Source: a virus (Duplodnaviria > Caudoviricetes). Taken from it: DNA of 54,655 bases. Positions 5,879 through 28,824 of this stretch are shown here, in pieces; position 1 is the first letter of the stretch, and every line of letters begins with the position of its first letter. The stretch spans positions 1 through 54,655 of IMG/VR virus record IMGVR_UViG_3300014208_000052. One strand, given 5' to 3'. The position numbers and the translations under genes are program-made. The notes under the pieces are model-generated. The model worked only from the letters and a program-made list of their open reading frames with translations. It was not told where the DNA came from and searched no databases.

Positions 5879-8047
5879 TTACTTCTTTTGTGGGCGGTGT
5901 TGCTTGGATTGCTGGGCGGCTTTTGCTTGTGCCTTCGCTTGCTCCTGCTTCATCATCATGTCCTGCGCGTGAGCTTCGTCTCGGTGACGCATTTCCTGCT
6001 CATGTCTCGCGGCCTCCATCTGCTGCTGCTGCTGTGCCACTTGCATTTCCTGGTCACGCTGGGCAGCTTGCATGGCCATGTTCTGCTGCGTCTCTTGACC
6101 ACGCATCTCCATGTCTTGCTGTTGTGCGGCGGCAGCGGCTTCCTGCTCTGGATCGGGCGGTGGCGGTCCCTGTTGCTGCTGTTGGGGTTGCTGCTTCGGC
6201 AACATCAACTGGTTCATGGGAACAACGCCGTCCAGGGTCGTGTTCATCAAGGCCATCAGGGCGTTGTACGGCGTCGAATCGCCCGTCTGCTGGTAGAATT
6301 GCAGCATCGGTCCCAACAGCGTTTGGGTAATCTGGTTGGCGGCATCCGTCAGCGATTGCAGATTGCGACGGCGACCGCTACCGGCCTCAATGCTGAACAT
6401 CAACTCGGCCGTGGCGTCTCGCGGATCGTCGGTATGCACCAACTGCATCCATGCCATCGTCCGCTTGCCGTAGATGGGAACCGGCTGACCCTGTTCGTCA
6501 ATGGATGGTGCCTCTTGAATTGGTTCGCGGAACAGATTGCCCAATGTCTCGGGGCCAACATACAAGCGGGAGGCCACACCAATCTTGCGACCGATACGGC
6601 TCATCCATTCTTCCACGATGTCGGCAAAGTCGGATGGGCGGCTGGTGACGTGGTTCTCGCGGTTCTTCGCTTCGGTAGCCGAGCGGCTTTGGGCGGAACC
6701 GGACGAACCGTACAATAGCGGGTCCATACCCGTTTGCTTCTCGAACTCCCGCGATACCATGTCAATGACACGCCACAGGTCAGACTTCAACGGCTCGAAC
6801 TGGATGATGTTGATGTACTTTTTCAGCGACTCGTCATCCACCGGGTCGTCCATTAACAGCAGTTCGAGGTCGCCACCGTTGACTAGCCGGTCCTGTGCCT
6901 CTTGCGGCAACCGCTTCCAGGCCATCACCAACGCCCGTGTAGCGGCTCTGGTGCGTCCCATGAGAAATGAGTAGGCATGATCGAGGAAGCTCTGTAGGGG
7001 CAAGGCGGCTTCCAGGGGCGATGTAGCCCAAGGCGTATCAATCGACGGTATGAAGTCCAAGCACTCGACCGGCCACGGATTGGCGATGTCGTCGTGGAAC
7101 TCAAGCGGCCAGCGGCACCGCTCTTGTAACTGCTGTTCCCGGTCCTCGCCAGCAAACCACTTCGGATGTAGGTTGAGTGGATAGGGCACGCCGGGGCAGA
7201 TGCACAAGTAGACGTAATCGCCCAGTGCGTCTAAGTCTCGCTCTAATTCCTTGAGCGTTGAGTCGGCATAGAAACTCTTGTTGCCAACGCCCATTCTCGA
7301 CCAGCATTCGTAATACTCAACGATGTCCTCGGTTCGCTCGTTGCCTGTGTCGCCACGGGCCTTGCTGACTGACGCCGAGAAGTCCGTTTGCAGTTGGGCA
7401 GGCAAGTCCTCAACGGGGATGTCCCATTCACGTGCGACAGCCCACTTCGATCGACGCCGTTTACGCATGATGAATGCGGCATCCCGCATCTGCACGCAAT
7501 CGCTGTCGATCAGGAGGTTGTCAACAGAATCAAAAAAGCCTGCCGGGATGTCGCCGTTAGGTGATTCCGTCAACTCGAACCACACTACGCCCCTGCCCTT
7601 GACTAACGCTTCTTGGATGGCATTGCGAGTTTCCCAGAACAGATTGGTTTCACGCGGCACGTAGTTGACAAACCACTGTGCCAACGTGCAACGCAATTCG
7701 TCCTGGGCCTGTTGTTCTGGCGGGTCGATTCCCAACTCTTGCAGCAAGGGCGGCAATGCTGGTCGCCACGGCGAAACAAGGAAGTTTGGCACCTTGTTGT
7801 GGAGGTGGGGCGTGTACAGACTGACGAACTCACGCGACTTATTGAGACGAGTTCTGTACTGCGGAGGCGTGGGTATCTTGAATGGCTCATCCTCGGGGTT
7901 GTCGGGATCAATGTACAATTCCTTGTACGATTTCCCAATGAAGTCCCATGCACGCTGGGCCACCTTACCAAACTGACGATGTTTGGTTTTGTCAGCAGCC
8001 TTCGCCTGTTCTTCCCAGAACTTCACAACTGAGGCGAGCCATTCCAT
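5879..8047 (-). CDS. Portal protein
   Basis: 722 aa after terminase; ALVKGRGVVW, TGMDPLLYG, RSATEA motifs; Q-rich coiled-coil C-terminus as in P22-type portals. Confidence 0.8.
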   Translation of the reverse strand: MEWLASVVKFWEEQAKAADKTKHRQFGKVAQRAWDFIGKSYKELYIDPDNPEDEPFKIPTPPQYRTRLNKSREFVSLYTPHLHNKVPNFLVSPWRPALPPLLQELGIDPPEQQAQDELRCTLAQWFVNYVPRETNLFWETRNAIQEALVKGRGVVWFELTESPNGDIPAGFFDSVDNLLIDSDCVQMRDAAFIMRKRRRSKWAVAREWDIPVEDLPAQLQTDFSASVSKARGDTGNERTEDIVEYYECWSRMGVGNKSFYADSTLKELERDLDALGDYVYLCICPGVPYPLNLHPKWFAGEDREQQLQERCRWPLEFHDDIANPWPVECLDFIPSIDTPWATSPLEAALPLQSFLDHAYSFLMGRTRAATRALVMAWKRLPQEAQDRLVNGGDLELLLMDDPVDDESLKKYINIIQFEPLKSDLWRVIDMVSREFEKQTGMDPLLYGSSGSAQSRSATEAKNRENHVTSRPSDFADIVEEWMSRIGRKIGVASRLYVGPETLGNLFREPIQEAPSIDEQGQPVPIYGKRTMAWMQLVHTDDPRDATAELMFSIEAGSGRRRNLQSLTDAANQITQTLLGPMLQFYQQTGDSTPYNALMALMNTTLDGVVPMNQLMLPKQQPQQQQQGPPPPDPEQEAAAAAQQQDMEMRGQETQQNMAMQAAQRDQEMQVAQQQQQMEAARHEQEMRHRDEAHAQDMMMKQEQAKAQAKAAQQSKQHRPQKK

Positions 8048-19600: not shown

Positions 19601-20150
19601 TAAACAGGCCGGGTTGCCCATCGAGGACTTGAATCGTGTGGTGTTCCGTGACGGCCTGCCCGATCCAGTGCGAACGGCACAGAAAACGATGGCGATGATG
19701 TCGCCGCTTCTGTTGGCACCAATCGAGGGCGCGACCAACACGCAGATGTACACGGGGCGTAAGCTGTCCGATCTGCAAAGCGTAACGGGCATCCCGACGC
19801 TCGATTCGATCATCCACTACTCGCCCGCGTCGGCTCTTGCCAGCGAAGCGTACAGTGCCATTGACCCGCGTAAGTCATGGGATCAACGGTTATTAAACGC
19901 CATGACTGGCCTCAAGGTTGGCACCTACGACGCCGAGAAGATGAAGCTACGGGCGTTGCAGCAGGCCCAACAAGAGGTGCTGACAGACAACCCGAAGATT
20001 GGCGAGATGTCGCTGCCGTATATCAAGCCCCAGTACAAGGGTCAGGAGGGGTCAGCGGACACTGAGGCTCAAATGAAAGTTCTGAATCGCCTGAACCGAT
20101 CCCTGCGATCACTGAAAAAGCGCCGGGAGTCGGCCGGACTAACGACTTAA
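16632..20150 (+). CDS. Large putative internal virion/DNA ejection protein
   Basis: 1172 aa; FHARN, QFNYS..WERSVAKKLVPFYSWVRNNLP and NTQMYTGR motifs typical of phage large polyvalent/ejection proteins. Confidence 0.65.
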   Translation: MRQSLRQELGLTDPLSLELPDVSLEQQLAGGDAPLTPEEEQSLLGRLAGGAEYIGESIEKPGYAVRGLLTGKPDALLNLIPFYDTVQQSGVGQSLGMPEAPKVSGWDLAEAYGAGPNEPGFDAGDIPKWGLELLTNPLTFASALPKVGVKAGLEAAKLAGEAGKAASMGEKIGSAVEGITRGVKPLTQTPTVIADQIRAGERAVAGFGLPFMEPAVTFGQGSERAAKAIEAIGYSKPVAFARGMFSHVPGVGGMFDPTYQRMADKAWVEAEGKIGALMDAKPVFDQGMKAFDDAATSAAEALGKQGDAEVMAQLRDLPRVLKSIPNEIGGVPDPEGIARRMGDILGAASDKPLPEALQHIANAGDHFTALFDGMQKAEDSLHALAVKYGAKIGTLDDPTERHTFRWMNDVANKAGVSQKGKTVPLTGLESSYRPETRRAWLRLYPQSTRYVNEIVRNQDFTGRILQDTGEVVQLSAKDHAATLAKVLEGMGVAVPEKASRIELQRLYLQQKLEPILDDSVRSGLLDEGKRSEWWNKLFGKKVVETTGPETSTVTRGVNRAPLPSEIARDSMGAIPIDSAAAAKLGRVTQGKFGTLGVDDIIGGIMKLPKETVNTGVWDKNVVQEFFNYSNYLVEKIYNARTMHNFLSQPGVVEEAATATRAGTPLLKAWRHTGLSDKGLENLVGTIAKGIPEGEDALKLASKYQITDDGVRVLNTFRQLQQPETVGKLGQMWDNTQKYIKSYLTIPRFSFHARNLASGTYQNIADGMVGPLDLFREIGNAFKQAHTGKQHLQFLDEFVSSGGLTSGVMKDIDALRAANQAVPSGLFGGAEKPLMNALFHPVQTFKEGGFNPFNLGSDVKKANVALESGGKLYGLVEYVNRASYYEALRKAGHSPSEALHYVNRSQFNYSKSSPWERSVAKKLVPFYSWVRNNLPLQLTRIVERPLGGVTGVTLKATKDLSSGDSEFTPDFLREGLGIKLPGGTPQATAFLKQAGLPIEDLNRVVFRDGLPDPVRTAQKTMAMMSPLLLAPIEGATNTQMYTGRKLSDLQSVTGIPTLDSIIHYSPASALASEAYSAIDPRKSWDQRLLNAMTGLKVGTYDAEKMKLRALQQAQQEVLTDNPKIGEMSLPYIKPQYKGQEGSADTEAQMKVLNRLNRSLRSLKKRRESAGLTT

Positions 20151-21027
20151 CCGACCTCTTTGCTTTGGCCAAGACCGCCGCCCTATTGGCTTCTCGGTTC
20201 TCCACAGGCTCTTTCTCGGTAAATATGTTGCTGGTCGGGTCCATCAATTCCGGTTGAATGCCAGCATCCACCACCTTGCGATACCAGTTGAAAGCACGGC
20301 GCACACGCCGCTCGTTGACGTTGGCAAACCGGCTCCGCTTTCGGTGTGTCTTTTTTGGCGGTGCCCACAACTTGCCGTTGCATGTTTTGCGGCGATTGGC
20401 GTGGAAGTCCTCCGCGATCTGGGCCAACGTCTCGCCGGCCATGCAGCGGTTGTAGATTTCCCGAACGTCGGCTAGCTCCTTTTGGTCCCACACGTCGGTA
20501 CGCAAGCACTTTGCGCCTCGCTTGGCACGCTCAACGACGACACGCTTCCGCCCCACTTTGTAGGCACCGTGAGCAAAGCCGTTTTCTTTGCGCCAATGGA
20601 TGCCCGCTTTGGTGGCTTCACGTAGGTAGCTGATAAACATATCGCATACCATAAGCTGCCCATAGACCATCATGCGCCCGTGGATGGTACGCATGTCGAT
20701 GACGCCCTCCATGTGGCTGCATATGACGATCCCGTTCTTCATCAGCCATTCCATCGTCTTAGTTAGCCGGAACGGGTTGCGGTCGATCCGATCTATCCGC
20801 CACACGAAAAGCCAATCGCCTTCGTGTAGCTCCTGCCTGAGTTTCATAAACTCTGGCCGATCTTCCGAAGCCACTCGTACAGCCGACTCGGTTTCTTTGG
20901 CAAGCCGGTGGATCGTGCGGCCGTGGCGGTCGGCTAGCTCACGCATCAGCCCCTCTTGCATGTCGAGGGACATCTGCATATCGCTTGACTGGCGGCAATA
21001 GGCGTAGCTGCGTGATTCTGTAGTCAT
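20023..21027 (-). CDS. Serine recombinase (resolvase domain plus C-terminal extension)
   Basis: YAYCRQS catalytic Ser motif, ETESA, DRPEF, GDWLFVWRIDRIDRN, REATKAG helix. Confidence 0.9.
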   Translation of the reverse strand: MTTESRSYAYCRQSSDMQMSLDMQEGLMRELADRHGRTIHRLAKETESAVRVASEDRPEFMKLRQELHEGDWLFVWRIDRIDRNPFRLTKTMEWLMKNGIVICSHMEGVIDMRTIHGRMMVYGQLMVCDMFISYLREATKAGIHWRKENGFAHGAYKVGRKRVVVERAKRGAKCLRTDVWDQKELADVREIYNRCMAGETLAQIAEDFHANRRKTCNGKLWAPPKKTHRKRSRFANVNERRVRRAFNWYRKVVDAGIQPELMDPTSNIFTEKEPVENREANRAAVLAKAKRSVKSLVRPTPGAFSVIAGIGSGDSELSFEPQCPLTPPDPCTGA

Positions 21028-27378: not shown

Positions 27379-28017
27379 TCAACCCTGCTTTTGGATGGTT
27401 ATAATGGTGCTTTCGCTGGGTTTGCAGCAGGCAACGGTGCCGTAAAAGTCGATGTAGCCCTCTTGGTGCCCCAGAATATCCTCTTGCATGGATATCAGCA
27501 GAATGCTAGCGGCGGGCGAGACAATAAGTACATCTGAAGGCCATAGGGCATCAGCGATGCGTCGGACACGCAGAACCTTCGGTAATGCTGGAATCTTTCG
27601 TCCAAAGATGTCCCACTCACCACCGGCTCGCACCACGTCAAGCAGAGTGTCGCGTAGGTTCGCTTGGGTTGTCTCAATATGTGTTGGGCAACACGCCCTA
27701 AGGCCGCCGTATCCCGGCTGCGCAATGTCGTTGATGTTCAAGATGGCAAGCTGCCGTAGATGTATTGCGATGTCGGCGAGCTGCTTTGCCACTGGCCCGG
27801 GCTTGAATGTGTTTCGAGCGTGTATCACTTGCCACGGGAGTCGTAGTTTTGCTTGGCGGATTGGTGTCTCAAAGCATGTACCATGCACATCGAGTTCGCA
27901 GTTGACCAACAAATACTGCAATAGCGGGTAATTGGTAGCGATTTCCCGTAGCTGTTTGTTGGCTTTTTTCACAAGGACGCGTCCCGGCGGTGCTTTCGGC
28001 TTACGAGTGGGTGGCAT
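27379..28017 (-). CDS. Hypothetical protein
   Basis: 212 aa, AAAGGA SD, basic N-terminus. Confidence 0.6.
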   Translation of the reverse strand: MPPTRKPKAPPGRVLVKKANKQLREIATNYPLLQYLLVNCELDVHGTCFETPIRQAKLRLPWQVIHARNTFKPGPVAKQLADIAIHLRQLAILNINDIAQPGYGGLRACCPTHIETTQANLRDTLLDVVRAGGEWDIFGRKIPALPKVLRVRRIADALWPSDVLIVSPAASILLISMQEDILGHQEGYIDFYGTVACCKPSESTIITIQKQG

Positions 28018-28052
28018 GGGTTTGGTTCCTTTGTCTGGAGGTTTGACGTTAG

Positions 28053-28124
28053 GGTGGCTGGCGGGAATCGAACCCGCGTTCCCAGAATCACAGTCTGGTG
28101 CCTAAACCGCTCGGCCACAGCCAC
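28053..28124 (-). tRNA. trnH: tRNA-His (GUG)
   Basis: GTGGCTG/CAGCCAC acceptor, D-arm GCCGAGCGGTTTAGGC, CCAGA-CTGTGAT-TCTGG anticodon arm, GCGGG-TTCGATT-CCCGC T-arm, C73; CCA not encoded. Confidence 0.92.
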
Positions 28125-28126
28125 AG

Positions 28127-28213
28127 CGCCCTCGGTGGGGATCGAACCCACTCACCGGTATACGGTCCCCCGGCGACCTACCTTGCCTCGATGATCGGTC
28201 GAGACGCGAGGGC
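28127..28213 (-). ncRNA. Non-canonical tRNA-like RNA
   Basis: Perfect GCCCTCG/CGAGGGC acceptor + G discriminator and GTGGG-TTCGATC-CCCAC T-arm, but no standard D-loop or anticodon loop. Confidence 0.7.
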
Positions 28214-28238
28214 TACATGGATACGATCCTCTAATTTT

Positions 28239-28705
28239 GGTAGTGGGTCAGTTTGAAGATTTTTTCCGTTTCGGTTGACTAACGACCCGTGGTGGGGACC
28301 GTCACAAGCGTAATCTCCCACCACGGGCCTGTTGGTTCACTGTTTTGAATTGGCCACACTCGCCGCAACTCGGCAACTGGCAGACCCGCTCTCATCGCAG
28401 TAGAGAGTGCTCGAAATCCTTCCGACGCATCACCATGAAAACGAACGGTTGGCTCTGGGTATGCGTGCCCGTCGCCGCCCTCGCAGGCTTCAAACGTCTC
28501 GATATTATCTCGACGAAGGGCTATGACGGCCGGGGCAATTCCTGCGTCCAGTGGCGGATCAAATTGCTCTGTAGTGTTAGCCAGCATGATCGGGCGGAGG
28601 GTACAGGTATTTGACCAAGTGCACAATACTAATCAATTGTAAGCCACAAGAAAAGCCCCCCCGTGGTGGTAGACGCAAAAAACAACTTCAAACTGACCCA
28701 CTACC
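28239..28705. mobile_element. Non-autonomous IS1595-family-type element (MITE/mobile cassette) with a passenger gene
   Basis: Perfect 20-bp terminal inverted repeats GGTAGTGGGTCAGTTTGAAG (28239-28258 / 28686-28705); 8-bp direct repeat CTAATTTT at 28231-28238 and 28706-28713; no transposase. Confidence 0.88.
28279..28587 (-). CDS. Passenger hypothetical protein inside the element
   Basis: LDAGIAPAVxALRRxNIETFEACEGGDGHAYPEPTVRF; stop lies 21 nt inside the left TIR end. Confidence 0.65.
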   Translation of the reverse strand: MLANTTEQFDPPLDAGIAPAVIALRRDNIETFEACEGGDGHAYPEPTVRFHGDASEGFRALSTAMRAGLPVAELRRVWPIQNSEPTGPWWEITLVTVPTTGR

Positions 28706-28824
28706 CTAATTTTGTACAAAAGTGCTGGTATTCTTATCCATGCCCGTATTCCCGTTCGGGAATGCTTGATGTTACGGACTGTAAGGGTGACATTTCGTAG
28801 CCCTTTCTGCACTCCGATGCGCGT

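What the first reader, a model, noticed from the sequence alone, without database searches (positions are those of the whole stretch)
28127..28213. tRNA mimic: intact acceptor and T-arm, rebuilt interior
Seen (87 nt): 7-bp acceptor GCCCUCG/CGAGGGC + G and a canonical T-arm (UUCGAUC loop). The interior is a 7-bp hairpin GUCUCGA-CCGAUCA-UCGAGGC, linker AAGGUAGG and a 7-bp hairpin UCGCCGG-(11 nt)-CCGGUGA; an alternative fold is GGUC-GCCGGGG-GACC. There is no U8, D-loop GG or U33. Fully paired new stems argue against simple decay. Inference: a tRNA-like ncRNA processed by RNase P/CCA-adding enzyme, possibly a decoy for anticodon nucleases or tRNA-sensing defences, a Y-RNA-like molecule, or a processing aid for tRNA-His.
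Basis: partly seen in the sequence, partly recalled or inferred. Interest (0 to 1): 0.7.

Follow-up and report, generated by a model that had tools for sequence, protein, structure and literature searches.

The report
Non-decoding tRNA look-alike beside phage tRNA-His
A groundwater phage carries, two bases in front of its histidine tRNA gene, an 87-base gene that keeps the upper half of a tRNA but has a rebuilt lower half that cannot read codons; it is real, but it stands alone in the databases, so whether it does anything is not shown.

Summary
On the minus strand (28213→28127) lie a perfect 7-bp acceptor stem, discriminator G, a canonical T-arm and two 7-bp hairpins joined by AAGGUAGG. The unit ends 2 nt before a good tRNA-His (65.3 bits).

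It is not a tRNA. ARAGORN did not call it at default or mildly relaxed settings. The best Rfam match is tRNA-Sec, at 19.1 bits against a cut-off of 47. None of 1529 single-deletion variants restored a tRNA.

It is tRNA-derived. Its 31-nt top half is identical to real metagenomic tRNAs: 8 of 10 hits, 5 of them tRNA-Arg. It also fills the slot that ordinary tRNAs fill 1-3 nt upstream of tRNA-His in other phage arrays.

No homologue of the interior turned up in any collection searched, so there is no covariation evidence. No RNA run holds the region. The fold energy is unremarkable, and only the pair of perfect 7-bp helices is unusual (10 of 2000 shuffles).

Best reading: a remodelled, non-decoding tRNA unit, co-transcribed with tRNA-His and cut out by tRNA-processing enzymes. 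That would make it work like a plant-mitochondrial t-element. A young relic is nearly as likely. The Y-RNA reading failed its tests, and an anticodon-nuclease decoy fits poorly.

This scan has noted similar phage tRNA mimics on other DNA.

The parts
28127..28213 (-). 87-nt tRNA-shaped, non-decoding unit (whole element)
   Evidence: Sequence. MFE and centroid cloverleaf. Not called by ARAGORN. Best Rfam match is tRNA-Sec, 19.1 bits against a cut-off of 47.
28207..28213 (-). acceptor stem, 5' strand GCCCUCG
   Evidence: Pairs with 28128-28134 by 7 Watson-Crick pairs. The same strand occurs in 8 metagenomic tRNAs.
28185..28205 (-). hairpin 1: 7-bp stem with 7-nt loop CCGAUCA, in the D-arm position
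   Evidence: Aligned to the long D stem of the tRNA-Sec model. Its loop has C at position 2 and C at position 6, so it is not an anticodon loop.
28177..28184 (-). 8-nt single-stranded linker AAGGUAGG, where an anticodon arm would sit in the tRNA-Sec alignment
28152..28176 (-). hairpin 2: 7-bp stem with 11-nt loop GGGACCGUAUA, abutting the T stem with 0 nt between
   Evidence: Aligned to the variable arm by the tRNA-Sec model and to the anticodon arm of tRNA-Arg by MAFFT and model R1. The assignment is ambiguous.
28135..28151 (-). canonical T-arm GUGGG-UUCGAUC-CCCAC (fits GGTTCRANYCC)
28127..28134 (-). acceptor 3' strand CGAGGGC plus discriminator G; no encoded CCA
28125..28126 (-). 2-nt spacer CU between the element and tRNA-His
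   Evidence: The spacing is the same as the 1-3 nt between tRNAs in other phage arrays.
28052..28124 (-). tRNA-His(GUG), canonical; U at -1 (no encoded G-1), C73, no encoded CCA
   Evidence: ARAGORN. Rfam tRNA, 65.3 bits. Sequence.
27379..28017 (-). co-oriented 212-aa ORF starting 35 nt after tRNA-His; no family and no relatives
28231..28713 (.). 467-bp insertion with perfect 20-bp terminal inverted repeats and an 8-bp duplication CTAATTTT, 17 nt upstream of the element; carries one co-oriented ORF (28279-28626)

Best explanation
The element is a remodelled tRNA gene that can no longer decode. It occupies an ordinary tRNA slot, 2 nt upstream of tRNA-His, in a two-unit phage tRNA array inside a long minus-strand gene block.

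It keeps a complete tRNA top half: a 7-bp acceptor, a 5-bp T stem, a GGUUCGAUCC T-loop and discriminator G. That top half is of the type found in tRNA-Arg genes. The lower half is two 7-bp hairpins with no anticodon loop.

Inferred mechanism:
1. The unit is co-transcribed with tRNA-His.
2. RNase P cuts at its G1 (28213).
3. RNase P also cuts at tRNA-His G1 (28124), which leaves a 2-nt trailer on the element.
4. The trailer is trimmed and CCA is added.

The result would be a stable tRNA-shaped RNA of about 87-90 nt. The same cuts would separate the upstream message from tRNA-His. That is how plant-mitochondrial t-elements work.

Shown: the anatomy, the failure of all tRNA models, the tRNA ancestry of the top half, and the array position. 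Inferred: transcription, processing, and that the top half is kept by selection.
For: - Anatomy.
- Not a tRNA: ARAGORN does not call it at default, with introns, or at the -ps setting. Rfam gives no tRNA match; the best is tRNA-Sec at 19.1 bits against a cut-off of 47.
- Not an interrupted tRNA: 0 of 1529 single-deletion variants were called. The same scan restored tRNAs in two long tRNA-like genes from other phages, 648 of 7424 and 535 of 4994 variants.
- tRNA ancestry: the 21-mer from the T-loop to the 3' acceptor strand occurs in 10 metagenome contigs. Eight are ARAGORN-called tRNAs with the same 5' strand GCCCTCG: 5 Arg and 3 type-I tRNAs with anticodon UAA.
- Slot: the last viral scan matched 12 loci. 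In 7 of them the match lies in a tRNA array: 6 ARAGORN-called tRNA-His genes, plus one in L051 that is cut by the locus end and was not called. In 5 of the 6 called genes (L049, L052, L054, L056, L058) a called tRNA (Met, Asn, Arg-UCU, Met, Asp) ends 1-3 nt upstream. The cut L051 gene follows a called tRNA-Val by 1 nt.
- Uneven conservation: the top half is 31 of 31 identical to distant tRNAs, while the 55-nt interior cannot be aligned.
- Two perfect helices of 7 bp or more occur in 10 of 2000 interior shuffles.
- The element fits the GGTTCRANYCC motif used to find t-elements. That paper maps RNase P and RNase Z cuts and non-encoded C/A additions at non-canonical cloverleaves (PMC1920247, passages read).
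- The flanking genes are co-oriented, and a 212-aa ORF starts 35 nt after tRNA-His.
Against: - No homologue of the interior was found anywhere searched, so there is no covariation.
- Fold energy is not exceptional. The whole element has z -1.78. The interior is matched by 508 of 2000 shuffles. The 196-nt context has z 0.00.
- The helix count is a post-hoc statistic.
- tRNA-His has its own RNase P site and needs no helper.
- The region is in flux: a 467-bp mobile insertion lies 17 nt upstream.
- A degenerate, uncalled tRNA also sits before tRNA-His in L050, so decaying units do occur in such arrays.
- No sigma-70-like promoter was found just upstream.
Confidence: 0.4

Rival explanations
1. Young relic. 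A tRNA gene, probably Arg-type, was wrecked by one or a few discrete rearrangements of its interior. The top half is intact only because too little time has passed. It may still be processed, but nothing selects for it.
For: - It is a singleton with no homologues in any search.
- Fold energy is no better than shuffles.
- There is a fresh mobile insertion 17 nt away.
- An uncalled, degenerate tRNA sits before tRNA-His in L050.
- Even the flanking ORFs have no relatives, so this is a fast-changing region.
Against: - A random replacement should not give a four-way junction of tRNA length with two perfect 7-bp hairpins (10 of 2000 shuffles).
- No single deletion restores a tRNA (0 of 1529), so several events are needed, yet none touched the 31 top-half letters.
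- Phage genomes usually lose dead DNA quickly (general knowledge).
Confidence: 0.32
2. Trans-acting tRNA mimic. After processing and CCA addition, the anticodon-less RNA works off the ribosome. It could be a sponge or decoy for factors that recognise the acceptor/T-arm or the 3' end, such as defence toxins that modify tRNA 3' ends. It could also be an aminoacyl carrier charged by a synthetase that ignores the anticodon.
For: - It has an intact top half with discriminator G.
- The tRNA-Sec model aligns hairpin 1 to a long D stem and hairpin 2 to a variable arm, leaving only the anticodon arm missing. That is the shape of a type-II tRNA without its decoding arm.
- Its 87-nt length equals that of type-II tRNAs in other phage arrays.
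- A non-translating pseudo-tRNA with regulatory effects is on record in Bacillus cereus (PMC3399842, passages read).
- Earlier notes of this scan describe conserved anticodon-less phage mimics. These are unchecked AI notes and count as leads only.
Against: - There is no conservation and no expression data.
- No partner gene was recognised nearby: the neighbours have no family, and there is no Ro60/TROVE or Thg1 gene.
- Known phage answers to tRNA-cutting defences are full tRNAs with altered anticodon loops (PMC10264068, search listing and start of abstract only). They are not anticodon-less RNAs.
- The tRNA-Sec score is far below the cut-off.
Confidence: 0.18
3. An unusual but decoding tRNA. 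For example, the alternative GGUC-GCCGGGG-GACC arm would give anticodon CGG, or the hairpin-1 loop would give anticodon GAU.
For: - The alternative 4-bp arm has a 7-nt loop with G at position 37 (sequence).
- ARAGORN at an 80% threshold forces an Arg(CCG) call, and its metazoan-mitochondrial mode at a lowered threshold (-mtx -ps) forces an Ile(GAU) call.
Against: - Both forced calls break the acceptor stem or use mismatched arms.
- Every candidate loop has C at position 33.
- U8 and the D-loop GG are absent.
- There is no call at normal thresholds and no Rfam tRNA hit.
Confidence: 0.03
4. Integration-site remnant (a tRNA 3' fragment in attP), an assembly chimera, or a chance structure.
For: - The 3' 24 nt equal those of tRNA-Arg genes.
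- A bare 3'-half copy of a related tRNA exists in L045.
- T-arm-plus-acceptor motifs arise in 18 of 200 shuffled windows.
Against: - The 5' acceptor strand is present at tRNA distance.
- The only recombinase found is a serine (resolvase-type) enzyme 7 kb away.
- The element sits 2 nt from a tRNA on the same strand.
- An identical stretch stands in Logan contigs of two runs, although those runs may be the source of the record.
Confidence: 0.04

Closest known systems
Plant-mitochondrial t-elements (Forner et al. 2007, PMC1920247; passages read)
   Same: Both are tRNA-derived, non-canonical cloverleaves that keep the acceptor stem and the GGTTCRANYCC T-arm and lie inside longer transcripts. t-elements are cut by RNase P and RNase Z and receive non-encoded C/A, which defines the ends of neighbouring RNAs. 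The expected behaviour here is the same.
   Different: t-elements belong to a different kingdom and genome type. There is no sequence relationship. Here the neighbour is a tRNA that has its own RNase P site. Processing has not been shown for this element.
Canonical phage tRNA genes in tight arrays, in particular Arg-type tRNAs with the same top half (L038, L039, L043) and the tRNA-X/tRNA-His pairs of L049, L052, L054, L056 and L058
   Same: The 31-nt acceptor and T-arm are identical. The element has the same position and the same 1-3 nt spacing before tRNA-His.
   Different: There is no D-arm with GG, no U8 and no anticodon loop. The interior is 55 nt rather than 40 nt, forms two 7-bp hairpins, and cannot be aligned.
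tRNA-Sec and type-II (long variable arm) tRNAs, Rfam RF01852
   Same: This is the best-scoring Rfam family. The element shares a long first stem, a hairpin directly before the T-arm, discriminator G and a length of 87 nt.
   Different: The score is 19.1 bits against a cut-off of 47. The acceptor/T geometry is 7/5, not 8/5. There is no anticodon arm and no UCA.
Bacillus cereus pseudo-tRNA 'tRNA-Other' (PMC3399842; passages read)
   Same: Both are tRNA-like genes that do not work in translation. tRNA-Other shows that such genes can be recruited to regulation.
   Different: tRNA-Other keeps a Trp anticodon and a near-normal cloverleaf, is chromosomal, and is part of a larger regulatory RNA. There is no sequence relationship.
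YrlA-type bacterial and phage Y RNAs (Rfam RF02553; Chen et al. 2014, PMC4201824, search listing and start of abstract only)
   Same: Both mimic tRNA through a T-arm and an acceptor-like stem.
   Different: The model does not match the element. The order of parts here is that of a normal tRNA. The window holds no Ro60 gene.

Membership tests
Canonical tRNA (Rfam RF00005) | Score at or above the 29-bit gathering cut-off, or a call by ARAGORN | tested here: not met
   No RF00005 match to the element at E<=10. ARAGORN does not call it at default, with introns, or at the -ps setting.
Canonical tRNA (Rfam RF00005) | 7-bp acceptor stacked on a 5-bp T stem with a T-loop UUCRANY | tested here: met
Canonical tRNA (Rfam RF00005) | 5-bp anticodon stem with a 7-nt loop, U33 and a purine at 37; also U8 and D-loop G18G19 | tested here: not met
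   The candidate loops are CCGAUCA, GGGACCGUAUA and the alternative GCCGGGG. None has U33. Position 8 is C. The hairpin-1 loop has no GG.
Intron-containing or interrupted tRNA | Removing one contiguous insert restores a tRNA | tested here: not met
   0 of 1529 deletion variants were called. Controls gave 648 of 7424 and 535 of 4994. ARAGORN -i also gave no call.
tRNA-Sec (Rfam RF01852) | Score at or above 47 bits; 8/5 or 9/4 acceptor/T geometry; anticodon UCA | tested here: not met
   19.1 bits, with the anticodon arm absent from the alignment and a 7/5 geometry.
YrlA / Y RNA with Ro60 | Match to RF02553 and a neighbouring Ro60 (TROVE) gene | tested here: not met
   The only RF02553 hit in the window is 12.3 bits, on the tRNA-His T-arm. 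No TROVE match. The record is estimated 78% complete, so a gene elsewhere in the phage cannot be excluded.
tmRNA tRNA-like domain | G3-U70 alanine identity pair, and a tmRNA model match beyond the T-arm | tested here: not met
   Pair 3-70 is C-G. The tmRNA model matches only 17 nt of the T-arm, at 11 bits. ARAGORN finds no tmRNA.
t-element-like processing signal (a functional class, not a homologous family) | GGTTCRANYCC T-arm within a non-canonical cloverleaf closed by an acceptor stem | tested here: met
   GGTTCGATCCC at 28149-28139. The motif is as given in PMC1920247.
t-element-like processing signal (a functional class, not a homologous family) | RNA ends that coincide with the element's ends, and non-encoded CCA | not testable with these tools
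   No RNA run holds the region. Only DNA contigs could be laid.
attP tRNA fragment | Only the 3' part of a tRNA, next to a tyrosine integrase | tested here: not met
   The 5' strand is present. The nearest recombinase is resolvase-type, at 20023-21027.

The most novel reading that the evidence does not exclude
The element is a working, anticodon-arm-less mimic of a type-II (Ser/Sec-shaped) tRNA. It would be cut out by RNase P, CCA-tailed and perhaps charged by a synthetase that does not read the anticodon. It would then act off the ribosome, either as a sponge for defence enzymes that attack tRNA acceptor ends or as an aminoacyl carrier. On this reading it is one instance of a wider, undescribed habit of phages of keeping the tRNA shell and swapping the centre. 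L035 (a 69-nt unit plus a 153-nt unit) and L034 (131 nt) would be further instances.
Probability: 0.12. Interest if true: 0.75.

Novelty: new variant of a known kind. Interest (0 to 1): 0.35.

Why it matters
If the unit is made and kept by selection, it would be a bacterial-virus counterpart of organellar t-elements and of regulatory pseudo-tRNAs. It would be a tRNA gene recycled into a processing signal or a decoy, and invisible to tRNA finders and to Rfam. Such units would be missed in every phage annotation.

As it stands, this is one unconserved example without RNA data. Its value is as a documented case and as a search template: an intact top half, a tRNA slot, and a non-tRNA interior.

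Tried and rejected
Homologue hunting gave nothing for the interior:
- BLAST of 28040-28260 against phage records found 204 records, all matching only the tRNA-His part.
- BLAST of the element against plasmids found no match.
- Exact and gapped patterns found no match in viral contigs or in genome contigs.
- An 18-mer of hairpin 1 hit two viral contigs, both inside coding sequence and so chance.
- nhmmer and blastn against 24 fetched loci found nothing.
- A single-sequence covariance model, R1, found only true tRNAs through the shared top half. It found nothing in five related virus records.

Synteny failed as a route to relatives:
- The 212-aa downstream ORF has one weak viral relative and only itself among 5.8 billion proteins.
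- The 12 phages that share the dNMP kinase share no other neighbouring gene, apart from one weak match in L014. They have no tRNA within the fetched flanks, except a tRNA-Cys in L014.

Expression could not be assessed. No RNA holder was listed for the region. Contigs of the two DNA runs showed no variants.

Readings considered and dropped:
- Intron-containing tRNA.
- tRNA-Sec or allo-tRNA. The score is below cut-off and the geometry is wrong.
- YrlA with Ro60.
- tmRNA domain.
- attP remnant.
- Supply of G-1 to tRNA-His. The base at -1 is U, and no Thg1-like gene is in the window.

Other dead ends:
- MAFFT alignments to Arg-type and Ser-type tRNAs did not give a credible interior alignment.
- BLAST of tRNA-His against E. 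coli genomes found nothing. I recalled an Arg-His gene order in E. coli, but I did not test it and do not use it.
- A T4 'species 1/2 RNA' comparison came from an earlier AI note. My paper search for it returned nothing relevant, so I do not rely on it.
- A tblastx run in a script gave no output; the program may not be installed.
- I opened no supplementary files.

Full report
WHAT IS THERE

The window is a 54,655-base IMG/VR virus record, estimated 78% complete. It was recovered from groundwater metagenomes. It has phage-type genes: a dNMP kinase, a nucleotidase, glycosyltransferases, a tailspike-like lyase and a serine recombinase.

The flagged stretch reads as RNA on the minus strand, from 28213 to 28127. 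The minimum-free-energy and centroid structures agree (-40.9 kcal/mol). They give this layout:
- a 7-bp all-Watson-Crick acceptor stem, GCCCUCG/CGAGGGC
- C8
- hairpin 1: 7 bp with loop CCGAUCA
- linker AAGGUAGG
- hairpin 2: 7 bp with the 11-nt loop GGGACCGUAUA
- directly after it, the T-arm GUGGG-UUCGAUC-CCCAC
- discriminator G

The same fold is kept when 196 nt of context are folded. Two bases further on (CU) starts a good tRNA-His(GUG) at 28124-28052 (ARAGORN; Rfam tRNA 65.3 bits). Only the strand needed to be added.

IS IT MORE THAN CHANCE?

For the top half, yes.
- A scan for a T-arm followed by a 7-bp acceptor finds two sites in the window, this element and tRNA-His.
- The mean in 200 shuffles is 0.09, and 18 of 200 shuffles have at least one.
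- The element also sits 2 nt from a real tRNA on the same strand.

For the interior, the evidence is thin.
- Its folding energy is matched by 508 of 2000 dinucleotide shuffles.
- The whole element has z = -1.78.
- The one unusual feature is two uninterrupted helices of 7 bp or more, seen in 10 of 2000 shuffles. That measure was chosen after seeing the structure.

IT IS NOT A tRNA

- ARAGORN does not call it at default settings, with anticodon-loop introns allowed, or at the mildly lowered -ps threshold.
- Only an 80% threshold, or the metazoan-mitochondrial mode at a lowered threshold, forces calls. Those calls break the acceptor or use mismatched arms.
- Rfam gives no tRNA match.
- When the element is searched alone, the best family is tRNA-Sec at 19.1 bits against a cut-off of 47.
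- In that alignment hairpin 1 takes the place of the long D stem, hairpin 2 takes the place of the variable arm, and the anticodon arm is simply missing.
- Removing any single stretch of 1-45 nt from the interior never restores a tRNA (0 of 1529 variants).
- The same scan did restore tRNAs in two over-long tRNA-like genes from other phages (648 of 7424 and 535 of 4994 variants).
- No candidate loop has U33. Position 8 is C, and there is no D-loop GG.

IT IS tRNA-DERIVED AND SITS IN A tRNA SLOT

The 21 letters from the T-loop to the end of the acceptor occur in 10 metagenome contigs.
- Eight are ARAGORN-called tRNAs with the same 5' strand. Five are tRNA-Arg (four UCU, one GCG). Three are short-variable-loop tRNAs with anticodon UAA.
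- One contig holds only a 3' half, and one is a coding-like chance match.
- The top half is thus a natural one, mostly of Arg type.
- The interiors cannot be aligned.

A second scan looked for a T-loop followed within 11-19 nt by the start of this kind of tRNA-His. It matched 12 viral loci.
- In seven, the match lies in a tRNA array: six ARAGORN-called tRNA-His genes, and one in L051 that is cut by the locus end and was not called.
- In five of the six called genes, a called tRNA (Met, Asn, Arg-UCU, Met, Asp) ends 1-3 nt upstream of tRNA-His.
- The cut L051 gene follows a called tRNA-Val by 1 nt.
- In the sixth called case (L050), the upstream unit is degenerate and uncalled.
- Four of the 12 are chance matches in coding DNA.
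- The last is L035, described under 'A second example of the pattern' below.

The element therefore stands exactly where an ordinary tRNA would.

NO RELATIVES AND NO RNA DATA

- The interior has no match in phage records, plasmids, IMG/VR, the species-representative genomes or the loci I fetched.
- The flanking ORFs have no relatives either.
- The 12 phages found through the dNMP kinase share essentially nothing else nearby.
- So there is no covariation test.
- No RNA run holds the region. Two DNA runs carry an identical contig and may be the source.

HOW IT MOST LIKELY WORKS

The genes from about 33 kb down to 21 kb all run on the minus strand. No sigma-70-like promoter lies just upstream of the element. 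A 212-aa ORF starts 35 nt after tRNA-His. The element is therefore probably part of a longer transcript.

RNase P and the CCA-adding enzyme recognise the acceptor/T-arm stack rather than the lower half of a tRNA. This is established knowledge. The t-element work (PMC1920247, passages read) shows cleavage and C/A addition at non-canonical cloverleaves that carry the same GGTTCRANYCC motif.

I therefore infer the following steps:
1. RNase P cuts 5' of G28213.
2. RNase P cuts 5' of tRNA-His G28124.
3. The 2-nt trailer left on the element is trimmed.
4. CCA is added.

This would give a stable tRNA-shaped RNA and detach the upstream message. All of this is inferred and none of it is shown.

Whether selection keeps the unit is open.
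- For selection: the contrast between a 31-of-31 intact top half and a wholly rebuilt interior, the two perfect hairpins, and the tRNA-like length.
- Against selection: the lack of any relative, the ordinary fold energy, a mobile insertion 17 nt upstream, and the decayed unit in L050.

My odds are:
- cis-acting, processing-competent module: 0.40
- young relic: 0.32
- trans-acting mimic: 0.18
- odd decoding tRNA: 0.03
- attP remnant, chimera or chance: 0.04

- Y-RNA-like: the YrlA model does not touch the element, and there is no Ro60/TROVE gene in the window.
- Anticodon-nuclease decoy: the element offers no anticodon loop. The phage countermeasure in print is full tRNAs with altered anticodon loops (PMC10264068, search listing and start of abstract only).
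- Processing aid for tRNA-His: possible but not needed, since tRNA-His has its own RNase P site.
- Supply of G-1: ruled out, because the base at -1 is U.

A SECOND EXAMPLE OF THE PATTERN

L035 has a 69-nt unit with a 7-bp acceptor, a canonical T-arm and a single interior hairpin.
- It is not called by ARAGORN, and 0 of 704 deletion variants were called.
- One base after its discriminator, a 153-nt gene follows. That gene has the acceptor, D-arm and T-arm of the window's tRNA-His type but about 82 extra nucleotides (Rfam tRNA 33.1 bits).
- I could not show that the L035 unit and the window's element are homologous.

Earlier notes of this scan describe several families of anticodon-less phage tRNA mimics on other DNA. 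They are unchecked AI notes, and I use them only as leads.

VERDICT

This is a real, tRNA-derived, non-decoding unit in a phage tRNA array. It is a new variant of a known kind: tRNA-like elements and pseudo-tRNAs. It is a singleton, with no conservation or expression evidence. Interest is moderate to low, at 0.35. The boldest reading not excluded is a working anticodon-arm-less type-II tRNA mimic that acts off the ribosome, which I put at about 0.12.

Noticed in passing
window 28231-28713: A 467-bp insertion (28239-28705) has perfect 20-bp terminal inverted repeats (GGTAGTGGGTCAGTTTGAAG) and an 8-bp direct duplication CTAATTTT on both sides. It carries one ORF (28279-28626, minus strand) with no Pfam or PHROG family, and a strong hairpin at 28286-28327. 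There is no other copy of the repeat in the window. It lies 17 nt upstream of the tRNA-like unit and is co-oriented with it.
   Followed up: partly
window 28052-28126; also L049, L050, L052, L054, L056, L058: The phage tRNA-His has U at position -1 and C73, so G-1 is not encoded. The same holds for the 6 ARAGORN-called phage tRNA-His genes fetched. A seventh such gene, in L051, is cut by the locus end and was not called; it has G at -1. No Thg1-like gene is in the window. How these tRNAs get the G-1 that most HisRS enzymes require was not pursued.
   Followed up: partly
L035:67-135 and L035:137-289: Two adjacent tRNA-shaped genes that ARAGORN does not call. One is a 69-nt unit with an acceptor, a T-arm and one interior hairpin. 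The other is a 153-nt gene with a His-type acceptor, D-arm and T-arm and about 82 extra nucleotides after the anticodon region (Rfam tRNA 33.1 bits).
   Followed up: partly
L034:38-168 (minus strand; record G002): A 131-nt unit with a 7-bp acceptor, a canonical T-arm and a 99-nt interior. Deletions of about 55 nt near its 5' side make ARAGORN call tRNA-Leu(CAA).
   Followed up: partly
L037:7425-7500, L040:995-1070, L042:79-154: Metagenomic tRNAs have the Arg-type top half of this element, a short variable loop and anticodon UAA. ARAGORN labels them Leu, although bacterial tRNA-Leu normally has a long variable arm.
   Followed up: no
L051:3257-3344: An 88-nt type-II, Ser-like unit (anticodon-position loop CCCGAAA, which would read CGA but has C33). 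It has the same T-arm and discriminator G as the window's element, sits in a 24-tRNA phage array, and is not called by ARAGORN.
   Followed up: no
L050, about 6593-6665 (minus strand): A degenerate tRNA-like unit whose T stem is reduced to about 3 pairs. It lies directly upstream of a phage tRNA-His and is not called by ARAGORN.
   Followed up: no
L045 (minus strand, near 2187-2257): A bare 3' half of a tRNA, from the anticodon arm to the acceptor 3' strand, related to the L037 type. It has no 5' acceptor strand and looks like an integration-site copy.
   Followed up: no
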